Assembly (NCBI GenBank): GCA_019347805.1
Contig: JAHWKR010000001.1
Coordinates: 88,881 to 152,880, forward strand
Direction: 5' to 3'
Length of the DNA stretch: 64,000 nucleotides
DNA from: Methanobacteriota archaeon
Lineage (GTDB): Archaea; Thermoplasmatota; E2; JACPAO01; JAHWKR01
Each line of letters starts with the position of its first letter. Positions within the stretch are counted from its first letter, which is position 1. A program made the position numbers and the translations under genes. Below are positions 22,361-36,409 of the stretch, one piece after another. The notes under the pieces were generated by a model. That model searched no databases. It saw only the letters and a program-made list of their open reading frames with translations, and was not told the origin of the DNA.

Positions 22361-22607
22361 GGCGACAAGAGACGGGATGGGGCGGAAATAGGTTGGGGCA
22401 GGCCGGCTAGTGGGTCCGAAGGAGCGTGTCTATTCGGAGACGTCCCATGTGCGGACACGCGTCGGGAGTCGGCTCTTGTGGGTCCGGATCCTCTTTGTTT
22501 ATATGCTGCGCATCATCAGCCGCCCGACCGGACGAACCGGGTGTGTGCTTCTCCTGTTGTCGCGGTCGGCCGACACCTTAATCACCGTCACCCCCTCGTC
22601 TTTTTGG

Positions 22608-23915
22608 ATGTCCCTCGACCTCGACCATCCGGTCCTCCAGGTGGCCCTCGACGAAGTCAATCTGCACCGTGCGCTCGGTTATGCCAAGGAGGCGGTGGAA
22701 GGCGGCGCGGAGTGGCTCGAAGCGGGGACGCCGCTCATCAAGTCGGAGGGCATGGAGGCGGTGCGGCGGCTCAAGAAGGAGTTCCCGGACCGCTTCATCA
22801 TCGCCGATCTGAAGACCATGGACACGGGTGCGTTCGAGACGGAGATGGCGGCCAAGGCGGGCGCCGATGCCATCGGTGTACTGGGCGCTGCGGACAACGG
22901 CACCATCGAGGAGGCGGTCAAGGCCGCGAGAAAGTATGGCGCCAAGCTCTATGTCGATCTCATCTCGGTGCCGGACAAGGTCCAGCGCGCCAAGGACGCG
23001 GCGAGGCTCGGTGCGGACTATGTCTGCATGCATGTCGGCATCGACGAGCAGATGAAGGGCGGGAACCCGGTCGAGATCCTCAAGGAGGTCGCGCGAGCTG
23101 TCGACATCCCCGTGGCCGTCGCCGGCGGGCTCAACTCAGAGACCGTCGCCGAGGTCGTCAAAGCCGGGGCGAGCATCGTCATCGTCGGCGGCGCCATCAT
23201 CAAGGCGGAGCGGCCGACCGAGGAGGCGCGCAAGATCGTCGCGGCGATCCGCGACAAGAAGGTCGTGCCGACGGAGCTCTTCAAGAAATACAAGCAGGAG
23301 GAGCTCTATGCGGCGTTCGGTCGCGTCTCCACCTCGAACGTCAGTGACGCCATGCACCGCAAGGGGGCCATGTTCGGCCTCCGGCCCGTGCAGCAGGACG
23401 TCAAGATCGTCGGTCGTGCGGTGACGGTCGAGGCGATGAACGGCGATTGGGCCAAGCCGGTCGAAGCGATCGACAAGGCGGGACCGGGCGATGTCCTTGT
23501 CATCACCACGCAGGGCGGCCACACCGCGGTCTGGGGCGAGCTCGCGTCAGAGACCTGCAAGGTGCGCGGTGTCGAAGGGCTCGTCATCGACGGTGCCGTC
23601 CGCGACGTCGACCACATCCGCATGATCCAGTTCCCCGTCTGGGCGCGCCACATCGTCCCCAACGCCGGTGAACCGAAGGGCTTCGGCGAGATCGGGGGCG
23701 AGATCGTCTGCGGCGGCCAGGTGGTACGGAACGGCGACTGGATCGTCGCCGACGACATGGGCGTCGTCGTCGTGCCGCAGGACCAAGCCGTCGAACTCGC
23801 GAACCGCGCCCTGGACGTCTACGAGCACGAGAACCGCCTGCGCGAAGAGATTCGCCGCGGATCGAGCCTCTCTAAGGTCCTCAAGCTCAAGAAGTGGGAG
23901 AAGGTCGTCGGATAG
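22608..23915 (+). CDS. Bifunctional 3-hexulose-6-phosphate synthase (OMPDC-fold) with RraA-like C-terminal domain
   Basis: N-terminal half LQVALDEVNL...FIIADLKTMDTG...LYVDLISV...DYVCMHVGID is HPS-like; C-terminal half VSDAMHRKGAMFGLRP...GDVLVITTQGG...GLVIDGAVRD is RraA/MenG-like; ATG at 22608 chosen over the longer ORF start. Confidence 0.7.
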   Translation: MSLDLDHPVLQVALDEVNLHRALGYAKEAVEGGAEWLEAGTPLIKSEGMEAVRRLKKEFPDRFIIADLKTMDTGAFETEMAAKAGADAIGVLGAADNGTIEEAVKAARKYGAKLYVDLISVPDKVQRAKDAARLGADYVCMHVGIDEQMKGGNPVEILKEVARAVDIPVAVAGGLNSETVAEVVKAGASIVIVGGAIIKAERPTEEARKIVAAIRDKKVVPTELFKKYKQEELYAAFGRVSTSNVSDAMHRKGAMFGLRPVQQDVKIVGRAVTVEAMNGDWAKPVEAIDKAGPGDVLVITTQGGHTAVWGELASETCKVRGVEGLVIDGAVRDVDHIRMIQFPVWARHIVPNAGEPKGFGEIGGEIVCGGQVVRNGDWIVADDMGVVVVPQDQAVELANRALDVYEHENRLREEIRRGSSLSKVLKLKKWEKVVG

Positions 23916-23998
23916 CCCTCGGGCATACCCTTTAGAAGGCCCCTCCCCGTCCCACGCCCGGAGGCGTCATCCTGTCGGACGAGATCATCATCGAGAAC

Positions 23999-24565
23999 GT
24001 GGTCGCCACGGCCGAGCTCGGCAAGCCGTTGGACCTTGCGGCCCTGGAAGGTCCCCTCGAGGCGGACCCGTACGACCCGGAACGCTTCCCTGGACTGGTC
24101 ATCCGCGACAAGAGCACCACGTTCCTGCTCTTCGGCGACGGCTCGGTGCGCATCACCGGCCCGAAGGGGACCGACGCGGCGAAGAAGCGCTTGCAATCAC
24201 TCACCGAACGGTTGACCGCAAGCGGCGTCCGGCTCGACGAGCGGGTGCGCTTCTGGGTCGAGAACCTCGTCGTCTCGACCGACCTCGGCGCCTCTGTGCC
24301 GCTCGACCAGGTGGTCTTGGCGTTCGGTCCGGAGACGACCGCCTATCAGCCCGACCGTTTCCCGGGGCTCGTCCACAGACCGGTCGACCCGCCGGTGACG
24401 ATCCTGGTCTTCTCGAGTGGGCGCATCGTCGCGACCGGCCTCGGTGATCTCGACCGTGTACGCCGCTCGCTGCGCTTGTTCATCGATGAGTTGCGCGACA
24501 GGGGCCTGGTCGGTGCGCCCCGTGCAACGGGCCGTGGGGACGCGGTGGTCGCCGAAGGGTCATAG
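23999..24565 (+). CDS. tbp: TATA-box binding protein (TBP); N-terminus almost certainly extends upstream of the annotated GTG
   Basis: Two TBP repeats NVVATAELGKPLDL...FPGLVIRDKSTTFLLFGDGSVRITGPKG and NLVVSTDLGASVPL...FPGLVHRPVDPPVTILVFSSGRIVATGLGD; the conserved IIIENVV beta-strand is encoded in-frame upstream of 23999 (see findings). Confidence 0.85.
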   Translation: MVATAELGKPLDLAALEGPLEADPYDPERFPGLVIRDKSTTFLLFGDGSVRITGPKGTDAAKKRLQSLTERLTASGVRLDERVRFWVENLVVSTDLGASVPLDQVVLAFGPETTAYQPDRFPGLVHRPVDPPVTILVFSSGRIVATGLGDLDRVRRSLRLFIDELRDRGLVGAPRATGRGDAVVAEGS

Positions 24566-25414
24566 ATGGCCCGCGTCCCGGTCTTCGACAACCATGTCCA
24601 TCTGCGTCCTGACGGGCACCACGTCGAAGCGGCGAAGGCGTACGAGAAGGCGGGCGGGACGCATTTCATGCTGGTCCATTCGCCGCACGATGATTTTGTC
24701 GGTGACACCCCGGATTGGGAGCGTGCATACGACCGGACGGTCGCGACCGCAGAGGCGGTGCGGAAAGAGACAGGCGTGCAATGCTGGGTCGCGCTCGGGC
24801 CTTACCCGGTGCATCTCGTGCGCATGGCCGAGACGCTCGGTGTCGAACGAGGTGTACAACAGCTCATCAAAGGTGCCGAGACGGCGGCGCGCTATGTCGA
24901 GGAAGGCAAGGCGGTCGCCATCGGTGAAGTGGGGCGGCCGCATTTCGAGGTCAGCGACGAGGTGTGGGACGCGTCCAACGTGGCGTTGGAGGAGATCCTC
25001 GGGATCGCCCGCGGGGCCGGTTGTCCGGCCATCTTGCACACGGAGTCGGCCGACCCGGAGGTCATGGCCGACCTCGGCGCGATCGCCGACCGGGCGAAGA
25101 TGCCGCGTGACCGGGTCATCAAGCACTACGCCCCCCCGCTTGTCAAGCCCGAGGAATGCCACGGGCTTTTTCCGAGCATCATCGCGAGCCGCAAGCACAT
25201 CCGCAAAGCGGCGGCCGACGCACCCGGTGGTCGCTGGTTCCTGGAGACCGACTACATCGACGACCTCTCAAGACCCGATGTCGTCATGCCCGTCGACACC
25301 GTCCCGAGGCGGGTCTCCGGTTTCCTGCAGTCGGGCGACCTGGGAGAGGAGATGCTCTGGAAGTCGGGCGTCGAATGGGTGGAAAGGCTTTACGGAGTCC
25401 ACCCGGAACTGTGA
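24566..25414 (+). CDS. TatD-family metal-dependent hydrolase
   Basis: 282 aa; FDNHVHL, GEVGRPHFE, ILHTESAD motifs; ATG immediately follows the TBP stop codon. Confidence 0.65.
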   Translation: MARVPVFDNHVHLRPDGHHVEAAKAYEKAGGTHFMLVHSPHDDFVGDTPDWERAYDRTVATAEAVRKETGVQCWVALGPYPVHLVRMAETLGVERGVQQLIKGAETAARYVEEGKAVAIGEVGRPHFEVSDEVWDASNVALEEILGIARGAGCPAILHTESADPEVMADLGAIADRAKMPRDRVIKHYAPPLVKPEECHGLFPSIIASRKHIRKAAADAPGGRWFLETDYIDDLSRPDVVMPVDTVPRRVSGFLQSGDLGEEMLWKSGVEWVERLYGVHPEL

Positions 25415-28038: not shown

Positions 28039-29244
28039 CTACTTGTTCGCCTTCTCCCATTTGCGGAACTGCCTGAGGTTCTCCATGACGGAGACGCCGT
28101 CCTGGTAGTCGGGGAAGTTCTCCTTGAGCCAGTCGAGGCTGGTCTCGGACAGCGTCCGGTTGTCAAGGTACTCGCGGAACAGGTCGTCGCTCGTGAGCTG
28201 GACCTGGCCGGTCTCGCCGTCGGCGAAGACGTGCCCGGCGGCGTAGTAGCGCTTCGGGTCGTTCCGGGCGCCGCTTCCGCGTGAGACGAGGCTTTCGACC
28301 TTGCCCTTGTTGATGAGCGTCGAGACGTAGGAGGGCGCCTTGCCGATGGCTTCGGCGATCTCCTGGATGGTGACGCCGGGGTTGGCCTCGATGACCTCGC
28401 GCACCTGGTCGGAGACGCTCGGGCCGCGGTCCTTGCGGCGGAACTGTTCCTCGATCTCGCGCTCGGCCTGGGCGATGCGTTTCTGTTCGACCTGGCGCCG
28501 GAGCCCTTCGTAGGTGAACCAGCGCTTCGGGTCGCCGCGCACGCCGCGGCCGCGCGATTGGACGCCGGGGATGCCCTCTTTGAGGAGTTTGGAGATGTAG
28601 GGGACGTGGTTCTCGAGCCGGTCGGCGATATCCTTCGCCGTGAGCCCGGGTTCCTTGGTGACGACCGCCTTGATCTTCTCGGGGATCTCGGGGTCGGGAC
28701 CGCGTGTCGATTTGCGGCGCGCCTCGGTGCGCAGGATGGCCGCGCGTTTCGGTTCGTCGATGGCCGCCTGCTCCTCTTCCGTCTTGGCCGGTTCGAGGTG
28801 GTCGGAGACCGGGGCGAGCTCGGGGCGGTAGTTCACGGGGTAGAGCCGGATGTCCTTGCGGCGGGTCGCGCCGCGGCCCATGCGGACGCCCGGGATCTTG
28901 CCGTTCTCGACGTCGTTGTAGATGGATTGGTAGGAGGCGGAGACCTTGAGGCCCAGTTTGGACAGGGTGATGCCGGGCTCGGAGGTGACCAGTTCCTGGA
29001 TCTTTTGCCGGCGTAGGTCGGCGCCGTAGCGGGCGCGGTGGGGTTTCTTGCGGAGGTAGATCCTGAAACTCTTGCCGCGCGCCTTGACCTTCTTGAACGT
29101 GTCTTCGTTCTGGTCGATGGTCGCCTCCACCTTGTCCGGGTCGAGGTCGAGCGCGGTCGCGATGTTCGCGATCGTCGTGCCAGGGTTCTCCAACACATGC
29201 CGTTGGACCTGACGTTTCAGGGATGAGTCAAGGATCTGTTCCAT
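28039..29244 (-). CDS. DNA-binding protein composed of four tandem winged-helix (wHTH) repeats
   Basis: Four repeats of the pattern xIxxxVxxxPGxTxxxIAxxL...Y(V/I)SxLIxxGK(V/I)xxxxSRGxGxRxDPKRY(Y/F), seen directly in the translation. Confidence 0.6.
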   Translation of the reverse strand: MEQILDSSLKRQVQRHVLENPGTTIANIATALDLDPDKVEATIDQNEDTFKKVKARGKSFRIYLRKKPHRARYGADLRRQKIQELVTSEPGITLSKLGLKVSASYQSIYNDVENGKIPGVRMGRGATRRKDIRLYPVNYRPELAPVSDHLEPAKTEEEQAAIDEPKRAAILRTEARRKSTRGPDPEIPEKIKAVVTKEPGLTAKDIADRLENHVPYISKLLKEGIPGVQSRGRGVRGDPKRWFTYEGLRRQVEQKRIAQAEREIEEQFRRKDRGPSVSDQVREVIEANPGVTIQEIAEAIGKAPSYVSTLINKGKVESLVSRGSGARNDPKRYYAAGHVFADGETGQVQLTSDDLFREYLDNRTLSETSLDWLKENFPDYQDGVSVMENLRQFRKWEKANK

Positions 29245-29695
29245 ACGCCTGCCCTTCCGACTTACGTACTCCTACTTGTAGCTGACGGTCCGGGGCGGGT
29301 CCCGGAGTGGCATGCTTGGCACACCGGCCCATGGAGGCTCTCCCTAAGGAGAGCGGACACCTGGACCGCATCACCGGATTGGGGGTACACGTCGGACGGC
29401 TTTACCCGTTCATGCTATATGAATCGTTTTATCGAAGCCGAGTCCGGCGGGTCGGCGGGGCCCCAGGAAAGAGCGGCGCGGAGGCACGATATGTCCTCCC
29501 CATGCCAAGTATCAGCAAAATGGACATCCAGACCCACAGGGCCGAGCTTGCCTGACGGCGGGCGGAGAGGATGTGCAAGCAAGTGAGGTAGAAGCCGTCG
29601 AACTCAGAGTCCAGCGAAATGACTCGGAGGGAGCGAGCGCAGCGAGCACCCGGCGAGGACACGAGCCTGCCGCCCACGAAGTGGCGGCAGCGAAG

Positions 29696-33422: not shown

Positions 33423-34772
33423 CTACGGCACGAAGAGCGCGGCGGCGTCGAGGGCCTGGCCCCAGACGTATTGCGGCAGGATGCCGGCGCCGATGACGAT
33501 GATGAGCCCGATGGACAGCGCGATGGTCGTCGGGAGCGACAGTTCCACCTTGGTCTCGTCCGCGGCCGGTTCGCCGTAGATGAAGCGCACCACCTTGGCG
33601 TAGTAGAAGAGCGACACGAGGCTGTTGGCGATGCCGGCGATGGCGAGCCAGACGAACCAGCGCGGCCCGTCGGTGAAGGCGGACTGGACGGCGCTGTAGA
33701 AGAGCGCGAACTTGGAGGCGAACCCGGCAAACGGCGGCACGCCGGCCAAGGAGAAGAGCATGATGACCAACACGAGCGCCAAAAACGGGTTGCGCAGCCG
33801 GAGGCCCTTCATGTCGTCGAGGCGGTCGCCGATGCCGTAGAGGGCGATGGCGGCGATGATGAGGAAGGCGGTGCCTTTCATGACCGCGTCGGTGAAGAAG
33901 TGGAACAGTCCGCCCGCGACCGCGAGCTGGGTGCCGACGACGACCGCGATGAGGAGGTAGCCCGCGTGGGCGATGGAGGAGTAGGCAAGGAGCCGTTTCA
34001 TGCTGGTCTGCCGGAGCGCGACGATGTTGCCGAGCGTCATGGTGACGATGGCGACGATGCCGAGGAGCACCTCCCAGTCGGGCTTGATGGGCCCGAGGGC
34101 GACGACGAAGACCTTGAGCGCGGCGGCGAAGCCCATGATCTTGCTGCCACCGGAGAGGAAGGCGGAGACCGTGTCGGGGGCGCCGTAGTAGACGTCGGGC
34201 GCGTACATGTGGAACGGCACGGCGGTGATCTTGAACCCGATGCCGACCAGGAGCAGGGTGATGGCGACGAGCGTGACCGGCTGCATGGCGCGCACCTGTC
34301 CGGCGAGCTCGGCCGAGACGGCGTCGAACTGCAGGGTACCGGTGATGCCGTAGACGAGGCTGATGCCGTAGAGCAGGATGGCGCTCGAGAGCGCGCCGAC
34401 GACGAAGTACTTGACCGACGCCTCGACCTTGCGGCCGTCGTTCTTGAGGTAGCCGGCGAGGATGTAGCTCGAGAGCGATGCGGTCTCGAGGCCGATGAAG
34501 AGGGTGATGAAGTCGCGCGCAGAAGCGACCACCATCATGCCGACCGTGGCGACGGTGATGAGTGTGTAGTATTCGGTGGGGTTGCGGAAGCGCTCGGCGT
34601 AGTCGAGCGAGACGAGCACCACGAGGATCGACACCAACAGGAAGACGATCTTGAGGAACTGGCTGAAGAGGGTGACCTCATAGAGGTCGAAGACCACCTT
34701 GCCGAGGTGGTTGCCGGTCACCATCATGATGCCGACCAGGATGAGCGCGCCGATCAAGGCGAAGAGCGTCAA
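33423..34772 (-). CDS. nuoN: NADH-quinone oxidoreductase subunit N; true start lies upstream, about 34881
   Basis: Polytopic antiporter-like subunit; TTG at 34772 is the only in-frame candidate, yet in-frame upstream sequence encodes a conserved TM1 (see findings). Confidence 0.8.
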   Translation of the reverse strand: MTLFALIGALILVGIMMVTGNHLGKVVFDLYEVTLFSQFLKIVFLLVSILVVLVSLDYAERFRNPTEYYTLITVATVGMMVVASARDFITLFIGLETASLSSYILAGYLKNDGRKVEASVKYFVVGALSSAILLYGISLVYGITGTLQFDAVSAELAGQVRAMQPVTLVAITLLLVGIGFKITAVPFHMYAPDVYYGAPDTVSAFLSGGSKIMGFAAALKVFVVALGPIKPDWEVLLGIVAIVTMTLGNIVALRQTSMKRLLAYSSIAHAGYLLIAVVVGTQLAVAGGLFHFFTDAVMKGTAFLIIAAIALYGIGDRLDDMKGLRLRNPFLALVLVIMLFSLAGVPPFAGFASKFALFYSAVQSAFTDGPRWFVWLAIAGIANSLVSLFYYAKVVRFIYGEPAADETKVELSLPTTIALSIGLIIVIGAGILPQYVWGQALDAAALFVP

Positions 34773-34891
34773 CCGTCCGGCGTCGCGCTTGTAGCGCGGG
34801 CTCTTTTGGAGCGCCAGCGAGACCAGTGGGACGATGAGGACGAAGAGGAGCAGCAGCAGTTCCGGCGCGATGGCGCGCCACTCGAAGACCG

Positions 34892-36409
34892 CTATGCGCT
34901 CACCCCCTCGACCGCGTAGGAGACATCAAGGTCCATGGTACCCAATATGGCGTCCGAGCCGGCGGTGAGGATGTCGGTGAGCAGCATGGGAGCGACGCCG
35001 TAGACGATGGAGAGCACGATCAGGATGAGAAGGGGCCAGAACTCGTTCCGGGTGATGTCATGGATCTTCGCGGTCTCGATGCGCGTGGTCAGCTCGCCGA
35101 AGAAGGCGCGCTTGGCCGCCCAGAGGTAGTATCCGGCGGTCAGCGGGACGGCCGCCACGGCGAAGAGCAAGGTGAAGCCGAACGCCTTGTAGGTGCCGAG
35201 GAAGATGAGCACCTCGGCGACGAAACCGGCCATGCCGGGAAGGCCCAGGCTCGCCATGAACGCGGCCATGCCGAGCGCGACGCCTTTGGGCATCCTGAGG
35301 GCGATACCGCCGAGCTCCGGGATGAGCCGTGTGCCGGCGGCGTGCTGGATGACCCCGGCGGCCATGAAGAGGGCCGGGCTGATGAGCCCGTGCGCGAACA
35401 TCATGTACATGCCGCCGACGATGCCGAGCGGGTGCAGGGTGGCGAAGCCGAGGAGCACCATGCCCATGTGCGAGATGGAGGAGTAGGCGATGACGCTCTT
35501 GAGGTCGCGTTGGCCGAGCGCCACGAAGGCGGGCCAGAGGATGGCGACGATGGCGAGGAAGACGAGGAGCGGTTGCAGCTCGAGGACGCCCTGCGGGAGC
35601 GTCGGGAAAGCGAAGCGCAGGAAGCCGTAGGCACCGAGCTTGAGGAGCACGCCCGCCAGGATGACGGAACCGCCGGTCGGCGCCTGCACGTGCGCATCGG
35701 GCAACCAGGTGTGCACCGGGACGAGGGGCATCTTGGTGCCGAAGCCGACCAGGAAGGTGGCGAAGACGCCCGCCTGGAGCGTGCGCGAGAGCCCCTTGCC
35801 GACATCGAGGAGCGCGAAGTAGTCGAACGTGCCGGGGCCCTTGGCGTAGAGCGTCATGATGCCGATGAGCATCACAAGGCTCGCGATGAAGGTGTAGGTG
35901 AGGAACTTGACCGCGGCGTACTTCCGTTCCGGTCCACCCCAGAGCAGGATGAGGAAGAACATCGGCAACAGGACGAGTTCCCAGAAGATGTAGAACAGGA
36001 AGTAGTCGAGGGCGACGAAGACGCCGATGACCGCGACCTCAAGGAGGAGCATGAGCCCGACGTAGGCCGAGGTGCGCTCCTTGACGTCCCAACTGAACCA
36101 GAGGACCAGCGTGGTGAGAAGACCGGTCAGGAAGACCATGGGGCCCGAGATGCCGTCGATGCCGAAGCTGGCGCTCGCGCCGATCGCGGGGATCCATTCC
36201 CAGGAGCCGTAGTAGGACATGTCGGCGGCGGTGTAGGCCCCGGCACCGATGCGCGTCCCGGTCACCGCCAGGACACCGAGCGCGAGCGGTACGAGCGAGA
36301 CGAGGATGCCGACCCGCTTCGCCACTTCGGCGGGGAGCTTGAAGCTCACCAGGCTGCCAAGCAGCGTGATGCCGAGCGCGACGGGGATGTAGAGGGACTC
36401 GTAGGCCAT
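34892..36409 (-). CDS. nuoM: NADH-quinone oxidoreductase subunit M
   Basis: 505 aa antiporter-like subunit, conserved position in operon. Confidence 0.85.
   Translation of the reverse strand: MAYESLYIPVALGITLLGSLVSFKLPAEVAKRVGILVSLVPLALGVLAVTGTRIGAGAYTAADMSYYGSWEWIPAIGASASFGIDGISGPMVFLTGLLTTLVLWFSWDVKERTSAYVGLMLLLEVAVIGVFVALDYFLFYIFWELVLLPMFFLILLWGGPERKYAAVKFLTYTFIASLVMLIGIMTLYAKGPGTFDYFALLDVGKGLSRTLQAGVFATFLVGFGTKMPLVPVHTWLPDAHVQAPTGGSVILAGVLLKLGAYGFLRFAFPTLPQGVLELQPLLVFLAIVAILWPAFVALGQRDLKSVIAYSSISHMGMVLLGFATLHPLGIVGGMYMMFAHGLISPALFMAAGVIQHAAGTRLIPELGGIALRMPKGVALGMAAFMASLGLPGMAGFVAEVLIFLGTYKAFGFTLLFAVAAVPLTAGYYLWAAKRAFFGELTTRIETAKIHDITRNEFWPLLILIVLSIVYGVAPMLLTDILTAGSDAILGTMDLDVSYAVEGVSA

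What the first reader, a model, noticed from the sequence alone, without database searches (positions are those of the whole stretch)
23933..24566. TBP has no canonical in-frame start codon and is translationally coupled to a TatD-family hydrolase
The conserved first beta-strand of TBP (IIIENVVATAELG) is encoded in-frame upstream of the only ATG/GTG/TTG (GTG 23999). Between the in-frame stop (23933-35) and 23999 the reading frame is KAPPRPTPGGVILSDEIIIENVV, with no ATG, GTG or TTG. A CTG at 23972 would give the very natural N-terminus M-SDEIIIENVV. So TBP either initiates at a non-AUG (CTG) codon or there is an assembly indel. In addition, the TBP stop TAG (24563-65) directly abuts the ATG of the TatD-like hydrolase (24566), an unusual operon partner for a basal transcription factor.
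Basis: seen in the sequence. Interest (0 to 1): 0.5.

Follow-up and report, generated by a model that had tools for sequence, protein, structure and literature searches.

The report
Divergent archaeal TBP with CUG start
A fast-evolving copy of the archaeal TATA-binding protein gene has lost its normal start codon. It most likely starts translation at a rare CUG codon that sits exactly where its relatives have ATG, GTG or TTG. Its tight pairing with a TatD-family hydrolase gene is an ordinary, conserved feature of this class of archaea.

Summary
The TBP frame is open from TAG 23933 to TAG 24563, and there is no ATG, GTG or TTG before GTG 23999. The conserved first beta-strand lies upstream of that GTG.

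It is not an assembly error. An independent metagenome (L088, 88% nucleotide identity) carries the same CTG, the same GGAGG and the same lack of a canonical start. TBP dN/dS between the two is 0.14, so the gene is under purifying selection.

CTG 23972 is the best candidate start.
- In 33 relatives with a readable N-terminus, an ATG, TTG or GTG lies 6-9 codons before the E-N motif.
- That start usually follows GGAGG by 7-9 nt (L037: GGAGGTGTCATC|ATG; window: GGAGGCGTCATC|CTG).
- The nearest outgroup (L002) has ATG at the same offset from a conserved TATA box and GAGG.

The TBP-TatD pair is conserved Thermoplasmata synteny. It occurs in 31 of 80 TatD loci, many with a stop-start gap of -4 to +4 nt.

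First, this TBP belongs to a small, hyper-divergent clade: TBP is 37-45% identical where TatD is 63-73%, whereas canonical pairs with TatD at 65-75% have TBP at 86-99%. Second, another gene in the window, nuoN, also lacks a canonical start and most likely uses ATA.

Whether the genome has a second, canonical TBP was not resolved.

The parts
23931..23937 (+). TATA-box-like element TTTAGAA, within CCCTTTAGAAGG. It contains the in-frame stop TAG 23933-23935.
   Evidence: Read. It is identical in L088. L002 has CCCTTTATAGCC, and in both sequences 34 nt separate the element from the start position. Its role as a promoter is inferred and was not tested.
23960..23964 (+). Shine-Dalgarno-like GGAGG, 7 nt upstream of CTG 23972.
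   Evidence: Relatives of this TBP gene have GGAGG-type motifs 7, 8 or 9 nt before their ATG, GTG or TTG (9, 7 and 7 cases). Other SD-led genes in the window have spacers that I read as about 6-10 nt.
23969..23971 (+). ATC, an alternative near-cognate start candidate only 4 nt after GGAGG.
   Evidence: A 4-nt spacer lies outside the 7-9 nt range seen in relatives. It is conserved in L088, so it cannot be excluded.
23972..23974 (+). CTG, the proposed initiation codon of TBP.
   Evidence: It is in the same register as the ATG of L002, 44 nt from the start of CCCTTTA, with GAGGCG at the same offset. Compare L037 GGAGGTGTCATC|ATG and L087 GGAGGCGTTGCA|TTG. It is conserved in L088.
23958..24009 (+). 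A 52-nt run perfectly identical between the window and L088. It covers the SD, the CTG and the first 12 codons.
   Evidence: It is the second-longest identical run in a 1387-nt alignment that is 88% identical overall. The chance of a run this long at this site is about 0.009 if mismatches are placed uniformly.
23972..24565 (+). TBP coding sequence as proposed: 197 codons plus the TAG stop. It is a divergent member of PF00352.
   Evidence: dN/dS against L088 is 0.136 with dS 0.40.
23999..24001 (+). GTG, the start used in the public annotation (MBW3581549.1, 188 aa, 'hypothetical protein'). It is probably a mis-called start.
   Evidence: No SD lies upstream of it, and it falls inside strand S1 of the model.
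24563..24568 (+). TAGATG, where the TBP stop abuts the TatD start.
   Evidence: The same kind of junction (-4, 0 or +1 nt) is seen in L002, L090, L092 and in many canonical Thermoplasmata.
24549..24606 (+). A 58-nt run identical between the window and L088, spanning the TBP-stop/TatD-start junction.
   Evidence: It is the longest identical run in the 1387-nt alignment.
24566..25414 (+). TatD-family metal-dependent hydrolase gene (282 aa).
   Evidence: Pfam PF01026, 1.1e-25. It is 73% identical to the L002 ortholog, 70% to L092 and 42-48% to 80 Thermoplasmatota orthologs.
34893..34895 (-). ATA, the probable start of nuoN. This is a second gene in the window without a canonical start at its N-terminus.
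   Evidence: The first canonical start is TTG 34772, codon 52 of the open frame. The NuoN profile TIGR01770 aligns from residue 17. GGGGGTGA lies 7 nt upstream, and the ATA overlaps the nuoM stop as ATAG. The NCBI protein MBW3581557.1 starts MAVFEW at this ATA. The sister lineage L089 has ATG there.

Best explanation
The locus encodes a functional but unusually divergent TATA-binding protein of an uncultured, high-GC Thermoplasmatota archaeon. Its ancestral start codon has mutated to CTG (23972).

The mechanism below is inferred, not shown. Transcription starts about 10-14 nt upstream of the CTG, driven by the TATA-like element at 23931-23937. The GGAGG at 23960-23964 pairs with the 3' end of 16S rRNA and places the CUG in the P site 7 nt downstream. 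Initiator Met-tRNA then starts the protein at M-SDEIIIENVV, with low intrinsic efficiency that a perfect SD partly offsets. The TatD-family gene is co-transcribed and is translated by termination-reinitiation at TAGATG. This gene pair was inherited from the common ancestor of many Thermoplasmata.

The following steps are shown:
- There is no canonical start upstream of the conserved strand.
- The CTG is positionally homologous to the ATG, GTG or TTG of relatives.
- The SD and its spacing are conserved.
- The CTG persists in a second population.
- The gene is under purifying selection.
- The TBP-TatD synteny is conserved.

The following steps are inferred: the transcription start site, SD pairing, actual initiation at CUG with Met, and translational coupling.
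For: (1) No ATG, GTG or TTG lies between TAG 23933 and GTG 23999.

(2) All 33 related TBP genes with a readable N-terminus have a canonical start 6-9 codons before the E-N motif. Thirty-one were tallied (ATG 15, TTG 12, GTG 4). L002 adds an ATG and L034 a TTG. CTG 23972 is 7 codons before that motif.

(3) SD geometry matches. Relatives with at least 4 of 5 matches to GGAGG have spacers of 7, 8 or 9 nt (9, 7 and 7 cases). The window has GGAGG, then 7 nt, then CTG. L037 reads GGAGGTGTCATC|ATG and L087 reads GGAGGCGTTGCA|TTG.

(4) In the nearest outgroup, L002, the TATA box, the GAGGCG and the ATG sit at exactly the offsets of the window's TATA box, GAGGCG and CTG.

(5) L088 comes from a different sequencing run and is 87.8% identical in nucleotides. 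It has the identical SD-CTG-S1 segment and no canonical start.

(6) TBP dN/dS between the window and L088 is 0.136 with dS 0.40.

(7) The two longest perfectly identical runs between the window and L088 are the SD-CTG-first-12-codon segment (23958-24009) and the TBP-stop/TatD-start junction (24549-24606). The two substitutions just upstream (23939 and 23957) would change the amino acid if that stretch were read in the TBP frame.

(8) In the AlphaFold model, strand S1 covers residues 6-15, so a GTG 23999 start would remove part of it, including the invariant Asn.

(9) A second gene in the window, nuoN, has ATA at the position where its sister lineage has ATG, again 7 nt after an SD. NCBI's annotation already uses that ATA.

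(10) Near-cognate codons support initiation at 1-2% of AUG in E. coli (bioRxiv 10.1101/063800, read). About 30% of putative alternative initiation sites in Haloferax ribosome profiling were at near-cognate codons (PMC7261190).
Against: There is no direct evidence of translation: no proteomics, ribosome profiling or transcript data.

CUG starts are extremely rare in prokaryotes. Only 2 of 61,358 ancestral AUG starts switched to CUG (PMC5622118). Archaeal aIF1 discriminates against at least the near-cognate AUU (PMC4705826).

ATC 23969 is equally conserved in L088. It aligns with the Met column of several distant homologs in one protein alignment.

With the predicted TATA-to-start distance, the SD would sit at the extreme 5' end of the mRNA, and its function there is untested.

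The clade shows signs of relaxed constraint. Amino-acid divergence is very high, and the L092 copy has an in-frame TAG. The loss of the start codon could therefore be part of a functional decline.
Confidence: 0.7

Rival explanations
1. Translation starts at GTG 23999, as in the public annotation. This would give a 188-aa TBP that lacks the first half of strand S1.
For: It is the only canonical start codon in the frame. Both gene callers used it (MBW3581549.1 and the Logan calls).
Against: No SD-like motif precedes it. It lies inside strand S1 of the model and would remove the invariant Asn of the E-N motif. The 27 nt upstream of it are identical between the window and L088 although pS is 0.31, and they encode the conserved I-x-(I/V)-E-N strand. 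All relatives start 6-9 codons upstream of E-N. A similar annotated GTG start in another TBP (P0017/L003) also sits inside an open frame that encodes S1, with a TTG further upstream.
Confidence: 0.08
2. Translation starts at ATC 23969, or at one of the ATC codons at 23984-23992, rather than at CTG.
For: ATC is a near-cognate codon of similar strength to CUG in E. coli. ATC 23969 is conserved in L088. It aligns with the Met column of several distant homologs.
Against: ATC 23969 is only 4 nt after GGAGG, whereas all relatives with a clear SD have 7-9 nt. In the nucleotide alignment with L002, and in the comparison with L037 and L087, the start codon aligns with CTG and not with ATC. The downstream ATC codons are 19 nt or more from the SD.
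Confidence: 0.07
3. The gene is decaying. After losing its start codon it is translated little or not at all, and another TBP elsewhere in the genome does the work.
For: The clade's TBPs are far more divergent than their neighbours: TBP 37-45% against TatD 63-73%, HTH protein 79% and NuoN 66%. Only 59 of 110 positions that are nearly invariant in canonical Thermoplasmata TBPs are kept. The acidic EYEPEQ stretch before FPGL in the second repeat reads AYQPDR in the window and GWSPSS in L002; from memory of TBP-TFB structures, this is the TFB-contacting stirrup. One clade member, L092, has an in-frame TAG. NCBIfam TBP models all score below their cut-offs.
Against: dN/dS is 0.136 over dS 0.40. 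The ORF is intact in the window, L088, L002 and L090. The promoter-like element, the SD and the initiation region are conserved. The four Phe at the positions that, in solved TBPs, kink the DNA, and both Asn, are retained. The model is a confident TBP fold. No second TBP was found in the window or the flanks, although the rest of the genome could not be searched.
Confidence: 0.07
4. The missing start is a sequencing or assembly artefact: a base error at 23972 or an indel upstream.
For: CTG is one substitution from ATG, GTG and TTG. L001 may derive from the same reads as the MAG.
Against: L088 comes from another run (SRR32481264) and a population with 12% nucleotide divergence. It has the same CTG and the same frame, with four substitutions in the flanking intergenic DNA.
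Confidence: 0.01

Closest known systems
Archaeal TATA-binding protein (Pfam PF00352; solved examples 1mp9 from Sulfolobus, 2z8u from Methanocaldococcus, 1ais from Pyrococcus)
   Same: It has two TBP repeats and a predicted saddle fold with TM 0.81-0.92 to the two archaeal structures. The paired Phe and Asn residues are conserved. It occupies the same genomic position as the canonical TBP of other Thermoplasmata.
   Different: It is only 35-40% identical to Thermoplasmata TBPs that are 86-99% identical to each other at comparable TatD divergence. It keeps 59 of 110 nearly invariant positions. It has a 2-residue deletion in repeat 1 and a C-terminal extension of about 17 residues. It scores below every NCBIfam TBP cut-off. 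It has no canonical start codon.
Prokaryotic genes with near-cognate (non-AUG/GUG/UUG) start codons, such as E. coli infC with AUU (from memory) and the CTG, ATT, ATC and ATA starts annotated in bacterial genomes (bioRxiv 10.1101/063800)
   Same: A near-cognate codon sits at the position of the ancestral start, behind a strong SD. Another gene of the same genome, nuoN, is already annotated with an ATA start by NCBI.
   Different: The organism is an archaeon, whose initiation factors (aIF1, aIF2) are of the eukaryotic type. I found no experimentally confirmed natural CUG start in archaea in the literature searched. There is no evidence for an autoregulatory role like the one known for infC.
Translationally coupled gene pairs with overlapping or abutting stop and start codons (ATGA, GTGA or TAAATG junctions)
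   Same: The junction is TAGATG. Junctions with a gap of -4 to +4 nt are seen at the same TBP-TatD boundary in 16 of 32 scored loci. The junction lies within the most conserved 58 nt between the window and L088.
   Different: Coupling itself is untested. The pairing of a basal transcription factor with a TatD-family hydrolase has no described rationale; I found no paper on it.

Membership tests
TATA-binding protein (PF00352) | Two tandem TBP repeats that score above the Pfam gathering threshold | tested here: met
   113 bits against a cut-off of 22.9, in two stretches.
TATA-binding protein (PF00352) | Saddle-shaped alpha/beta fold superposable on solved TBPs | tested here: met
   AlphaFold pLDDT 88.5 and pTM 0.78. 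The 44 Foldseek PDB hits with E <= 0.001 are all TBP structures or TBP-containing complexes, and the best have TM 0.81-0.92 and rmsd 1.6-1.8.
TATA-binding protein (PF00352) | Paired Phe residues and the strand-S1 Asn in each repeat. From memory of TBP-DNA structures, these insert into or contact the DNA. | tested here: met
   F39, F54, F130, F147, N9 and N98 occupy invariant or nearly invariant columns and are present in the window protein. DNA binding itself was not tested.
TATA-binding protein (PF00352) | Score above the NCBIfam equivalog or subfamily cut-offs used to name a protein as TBP | tested here: not met
   The best score is 129 bits against a cut-off of 181. All ten models fall below their cut-offs. 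The public record calls the protein 'hypothetical protein'.
TATA-binding protein (PF00352) | Acidic C-terminal stirrup (EYEPEQ before FPGL in repeat 2). From memory of the 1ais structure, this contacts TFB. | tested here: inconclusive
   The window has AYQPDR and L002 has GWSPSS where canonical Thermoplasmata have EYEPEQ. The effect on TFB binding cannot be judged from sequence.
Gene with a near-cognate start codon | Conserved protein sequence extends upstream of every canonical start in the frame | tested here: met
Gene with a near-cognate start codon | The near-cognate codon sits at the position of the relatives' start codon, behind a ribosome-binding site at normal spacing | tested here: met
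Gene with a near-cognate start codon | The state persists in related populations while the gene stays under purifying selection | tested here: met
   L088 has the same CTG, and dN/dS is 0.136.
Gene with a near-cognate start codon | The protein N-terminus is mapped to that codon | not testable with these tools
   This needs N-terminal proteomics or initiation-site ribosome profiling.
Translationally coupled operon | Stop and start codons overlap or abut on one strand, and the arrangement is conserved in relatives | tested here: met
Translationally coupled operon | Translation of the downstream gene depends on translation of the upstream gene | not testable with these tools
   This needs a reporter or polar-mutation experiment.
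Pseudogene | A disrupted frame, or dN/dS close to 1 | tested here: not met
   The 197-codon frame is intact. dN/dS is 0.136. One other clade member, L092, does carry an in-frame TAG.

The most novel reading that the evidence does not exclude
In a small, uncultured, high-GC clade of Thermoplasmatota (the window, L088, L002, L090/L091 and L092), the syntenic TBP, which may be the only one, has escaped the extreme constraint seen in every other sampled member of the class. It evolves roughly ten times faster relative to its neighbour gene, and the stretch that normally contacts TFB is remodelled. In one lineage it is expressed from a conserved CUG codon. The same genome also starts nuoN at AUA, which would point to relaxed start-codon fidelity in this lineage. 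If this is the sole TBP, the basal transcription apparatus of these archaea has been substantially remodelled.
Probability: 0.25. Interest if true: 0.7.

Novelty: new member of a known kind. Interest (0 to 1): 0.5.

Why it matters
Natural initiation at CUG or AUA is very rare in prokaryotes and, as far as I could find, is not experimentally documented in archaea. This locus has a conserved CUG behind a perfect Shine-Dalgarno sequence, in a gene under purifying selection, with ATG, GTG or TTG at the same position in relatives. That makes it a clean natural test case for start-codon stringency in the archaeal, eukaryote-like initiation machinery.

It also exposes an annotation error. The public protein is truncated and labelled hypothetical.

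Separately, TBP is among the most conserved archaeal proteins. A syntenic ortholog that has changed almost half of the class-invariant positions raises a specific question: do these organisms carry a second TBP, or has their promoter recognition changed?

The widespread TBP-TatD gene pair in Thermoplasmata is an unexplained conserved linkage and may be worth a functional look.

Tried and rejected
- **Assembly error.** Rejected using L001 (identical) and the independent L088.
- **Read-through of TAG 23933 from the upstream in-frame GTG.** Rejected. The segment lies upstream of the TATA-like element and overlaps the 3' end of the preceding gene. The window-L088 substitutions there would change amino acids in that frame.
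- **Leaderless initiation.** No start-like codon lies at the predicted transcript 5' end. This is an inference.
- **A structured RNA around the start.** The fold of 23958-24030 is no more stable than shuffled sequences (z = +1.0). Rfam finds only one tRNA in the window, which ARAGORN types as tRNA-Ala.
- **The bacterial promoter and terminator scan** found nothing, as expected for an archaeon.
- **Search for a second, canonical TBP in the same genome.** Not resolved.
  - There is only one TBP in the 64-kb window and in the L002 flanks.
  - A database search with a canonical Thermoplasmata TBP listed 120 of 7,855 hits, none attributable to this MAG.
  - The accession look-ups were uninformative.
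- **First genome-contig scan**, with a two-sequence TatD alignment, found nothing. The MAG and its close relatives are therefore not among the GTDB representatives held. A broader alignment then worked.
- **Literature on a TBP-TatD linkage.** Nothing relevant was found.
- **Other genes in the window.** Five further genes had family profiles that reach the N-terminus. All five have canonical starts where the profile expects them.
Full report
**1. The observation**

In the frame of the TBP gene, TAG at 23933-23935 is followed by KAPPRPTPGGVILSDEIIIENVV. There is no ATG, GTG or TTG before GTG 23999. CTG is at 23972 and ATC at 23969. The frame ends at TAG 24563-24565, directly followed by ATG 24566 of the next ORF.

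The first product is a TBP. Pfam PF00352 gives 5.8e-33 over two repeats. The second product belongs to the TatD family (PF01026, 1.1e-25). All ten NCBIfam TBP models hit the first protein, but each scores below its cut-off (best 129 bits against 181). This was the first sign that the TBP is atypical.

An AlphaFold model has pLDDT 88.5. Its first strand covers residues 6-15 when numbered from the CTG, so a start at GTG 23999 (residue 10) would cut that strand. The 44 Foldseek hits in the PDB with E <= 0.001 are all TBP structures or TBP-containing complexes. The best are the archaeal TBPs 1mp9 and 2z8u, with TM 0.81-0.92.

**2. Source and the artefact question**

The protein, as annotated from GTG 23999, is MBW3581549.1. 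It is labelled 'hypothetical protein KY455_00470' and comes from a 'Euryarchaeota archaeon' MAG. A Logan assembly of run SRR15827330 (L001) is identical over the region, but it may come from the same reads.

The decisive sequence is L088, a 1,387-nt contig from a different run (SRR32481264). I found it through the 90% cluster of the protein. It is 87.8% identical in nucleotides over TBP. It has four substitutions in the intergenic DNA upstream, yet it carries the same GGAGGCGTCATC-CTG-TCGGACGAG... segment and likewise has no canonical start. An assembly indel or base error is therefore excluded.

**3. Where translation most likely starts**

I collected relatives in two ways.

- *Nearest protein homolog.* This is P0002, 36-38% identical depending on the alignment. 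It lies on L002 with an ATG start and a TatD gene that overlaps it by 4 nt.
- *Scans with a TatD alignment.* These gave 3 metagenome loci and 80 loci from GTDB species representatives, nearly all labelled as Thermoplasmata lineages. An HMM scan found a TBP gene directly upstream of TatD on the same strand in 31 of the 80, and in all 3 metagenome loci.

In all 33 relatives whose N-terminus could be read, a canonical start lies 6-9 codons before the E of the I-x-(I/V)-E-N motif. Thirty-one were tallied together: ATG 15, TTG 12 and GTG 4. L002 adds an ATG and L034 a TTG. The window has none. Its CTG is 7 codons before that E.

The starts of relatives are preceded by GGAGG-type motifs. Where at least 4 of 5 bases match, the spacer is 7 nt (9 loci), 8 nt (7 loci) or 9 nt (7 loci). 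The window has a perfect GGAGG, then 7 nt, then CTG. Some relatives are almost superimposable: L037 reads GGAGGTGTCATC|ATG and L087 reads GGAGGCGTTGCA|TTG, against GGAGGCGTCATC|CTG in the window.

In L002 the element CCCTTTATAG, the GAGGCG and the ATG sit at exactly the offsets of CCCTTTAGAA, GAGGCG and CTG in the window. In both, 34 nt separate the TATA-like heptamer from the start position. ATC 23969 would have only a 4-nt spacer, which falls outside the observed range.

**4. Is the gene alive?**

Between the window and L088, TBP has dS 0.40, dN 0.055 and dN/dS 0.136. The neighbouring TatD has dN/dS 0.076. This is clear purifying selection over a period in which the CTG persisted.

In the 1,387-nt alignment, which is 88% identical overall, the two longest perfectly identical runs are these:
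- 24549-24606, 58 nt, which spans the TBP-stop/TatD-start junction;
- 23958-24009, 52 nt, which covers the SD, the CTG and the first 12 codons.

The chance of a run this long at the second site is about 0.009 if mismatches are spread uniformly. The two substitutions just upstream, at 23939 and 23957, would change the amino acid if read in the TBP frame. This fits translation starting downstream of them.

I therefore place about 0.7 on initiation at CUG 23972. The remainder is split among ATC 23969, GTG 23999, little or no translation, other or mixed initiation, and artefact.

**5. The TatD linkage**

The abutting TAGATG is real. The pairing, however, is conserved synteny in Thermoplasmata and not a peculiarity of this genome. 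Among 32 scored junctions:
- 16 have a gap between -4 and +4 nt (ten at -4, four at 0 including the window, one at +2 and one at +4);
- nine have a gap of 16 to 107 nt;
- seven have about 480-840 nt, and in at least L005 and L007 another ORF sits in that space;
- two computed overlaps of about 30 nt probably reflect a wrong choice of TatD start.

All members of the divergent clade also keep the tight junction. I found no paper that discusses this linkage.

**6.

Between the window and the L002 organism, identities are as follows:

| Protein | Identity |
|---|---|
| TatD | 72-73% |
| Neighbouring HTH protein | 79% |
| NuoN | 66% |
| TBP | 37% |

Among the canonical Thermoplasmata loci, pairs with TatD at 65-75% have TBP at 86-99% (median 97; n = 27).

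Of 110 alignment columns that are at least 90% conserved in 31 canonical TBPs, the window keeps 59 and L002 keeps 50. Both share derived features:
- a 2-residue deletion in repeat 1;
- DGS...TGP in place of SGK..CTGAKS;
- VVSTDL;
- VATG in place of VCTG;
- a C-terminal extension.

The acidic EYEPEQ before FPGL in repeat 2 reads AYQPDR in the window and GWSPSS in L002.

An exhaustive HMMER search of 1.84 billion representative proteins found only five hits at E <= 1e-30. Two further members of this clade came from that search.
- P0264 (L090 and L091) is 45% identical. It has an ATG start 27-28 nt after a TATA-like element and no SD.
- P0387 (L092) is a partial copy. Its frame contains a TAG where L090 has GAA.

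Across the clade, excluding the close window-L088 pair (92% and 93%), TBP identity between lineages is 36-45% (69% for L090 against L092) while TatD identity is 61-71%. So the clade's TBP evolves much faster than normal but is not neutral, at least in the window lineage.

I could not determine whether these genomes also carry a canonical TBP.

**7. A second non-canonical start in the same window**

The nuoN frame (33423-34925, minus strand) has its first canonical start at codon 52 (TTG 34772). The NuoN profile TIGR01770 aligns from residue 17, and homologs align over the first transmembrane helix.

An ATA at 34895-34893 lies 7 nt after GGGGGTGA and overlaps the nuoM stop as ATAG. NCBI's annotation of the MAG already starts NuoN there (MBW3581557.1, MAVFEW..., 490 aa). 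The sister lineage L089 has ATG at that place, behind GGAGGTGA.

Five other genes in the window have family profiles that reach the N-terminus, and all five have canonical starts.

Two near-cognate starts among about 46 genes is far above published rates. Only 2 of 61,358 ancestral AUG starts switched to CUG and 1 to AUU (PMC5622118). This suggests either drift in a small population, offset by strong SD motifs, or a more permissive initiation apparatus in this lineage.

**8. Comparison with what is known**

AUG, GUG and UUG are the accepted archaeal start codons, and aIF1 discriminates against AUU (PMC4705826; PMC7531240). In E. coli, CUG, AUA, AUC and AUU initiate at 1-2% of AUG (bioRxiv 10.1101/063800). 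In Haloferax ribosome profiling, about 30% of putative alternative initiation sites were at near-cognate codons, but these were set aside and not analysed further (PMC7261190).

The locus is therefore a new, well-supported natural instance of a known but rare phenomenon. It sits in a member of the TBP family that is itself an outlier.

**9. Verdict**

The CTG interpretation is supported and the indel alternative is refuted. The description of TatD as an unusual partner should be corrected to conserved Thermoplasmata synteny.

The mechanism is inferred from comparative evidence only. Overall interest is moderate (0.5). It would rise if this proves to be the sole TBP, or if the genome shows start-codon relaxation throughout.

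Noticed in passing
window 33423-34925 (-), ATA at 34895-34893: nuoN has no canonical start at its N-terminus. Its first ATG, GTG or TTG is codon 52, beyond the first transmembrane helix. An ATA lies 7 nt after GGGGGTGA and overlaps the nuoM stop (ATAG). NCBI's record starts the protein there, and the sister lineage L089 has ATG.
   Followed up: yes
window 23972-24565; L002 6001-6591; L090 1097-1663; L092 3-428: The syntenic TBP of this small clade is hyper-divergent: 37-45% identity where the adjacent TatD is 63-73%. Canonical Thermoplasmata pairs show 86-99% TBP identity at similar TatD divergence.
   Followed up: yes
L092 66-68: A related metagenome contig has an in-frame TAG in the TBP frame where L090 has GAA. 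This could be pseudogenisation in one lineage or a sequencing error. Only one short contig is available.
   Followed up: partly
L008-L087 (GTDB Thermoplasmatota loci): TTG is the TBP start codon in 13 of the 33 relatives with a readable N-terminus. They are mostly Methanomassiliicoccales, and the start is nearly always preceded by an AAGGTGA or GGAGG motif. That is a striking enrichment of a weak start codon for a basal transcription factor.
   Followed up: partly
L003 2965-3537 (P0017): The public gene call for this TBP starts at a GTG inside strand S1 (MVVSTDL...). The open frame upstream encodes ...PIIDIVNVVVS and has a TTG 36 nt upstream, so the call is probably truncated in the same way as the window's annotation.
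   Followed up: partly
L087 3063-3906; L016 3435-3986: Two Methanomassiliicoccales MAG loci have disrupted TBP genes. L087 is split into two overlapping frames and contains a run of N. L016 has an indel in the first codons. Both look like assembly problems, not biology.
   Followed up: no
window 22410-23915 (+): The upstream gene is a fusion of hexulose-6-phosphate synthase and an RraA-like domain (NCBIfam PRK07028, 2e-192). The profile aligns from residue 73 of the 501-aa ORF, so the real start is probably the ATG near 22608 (MSLDLDHP...). The longest-ORF call is over-extended.
   Followed up: partly
window 28039-29271 (-); L002 8360-9568 (-): A 401-aa protein with repeated helix-turn-helix modules (faint HTH_24 and HTH_HVO_0163_N hits) is 79% identical between the window and the L002 organism. 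It is syntenic near the TBP-TatD pair. Its function is unknown.
   Followed up: no
window 23933-23935: The in-frame stop codon that closes the TBP frame upstream is part of the TATA-like element itself (TTTAGAA). Any N-terminal extension of the frame is therefore blocked by the promoter sequence.
   Followed up: no
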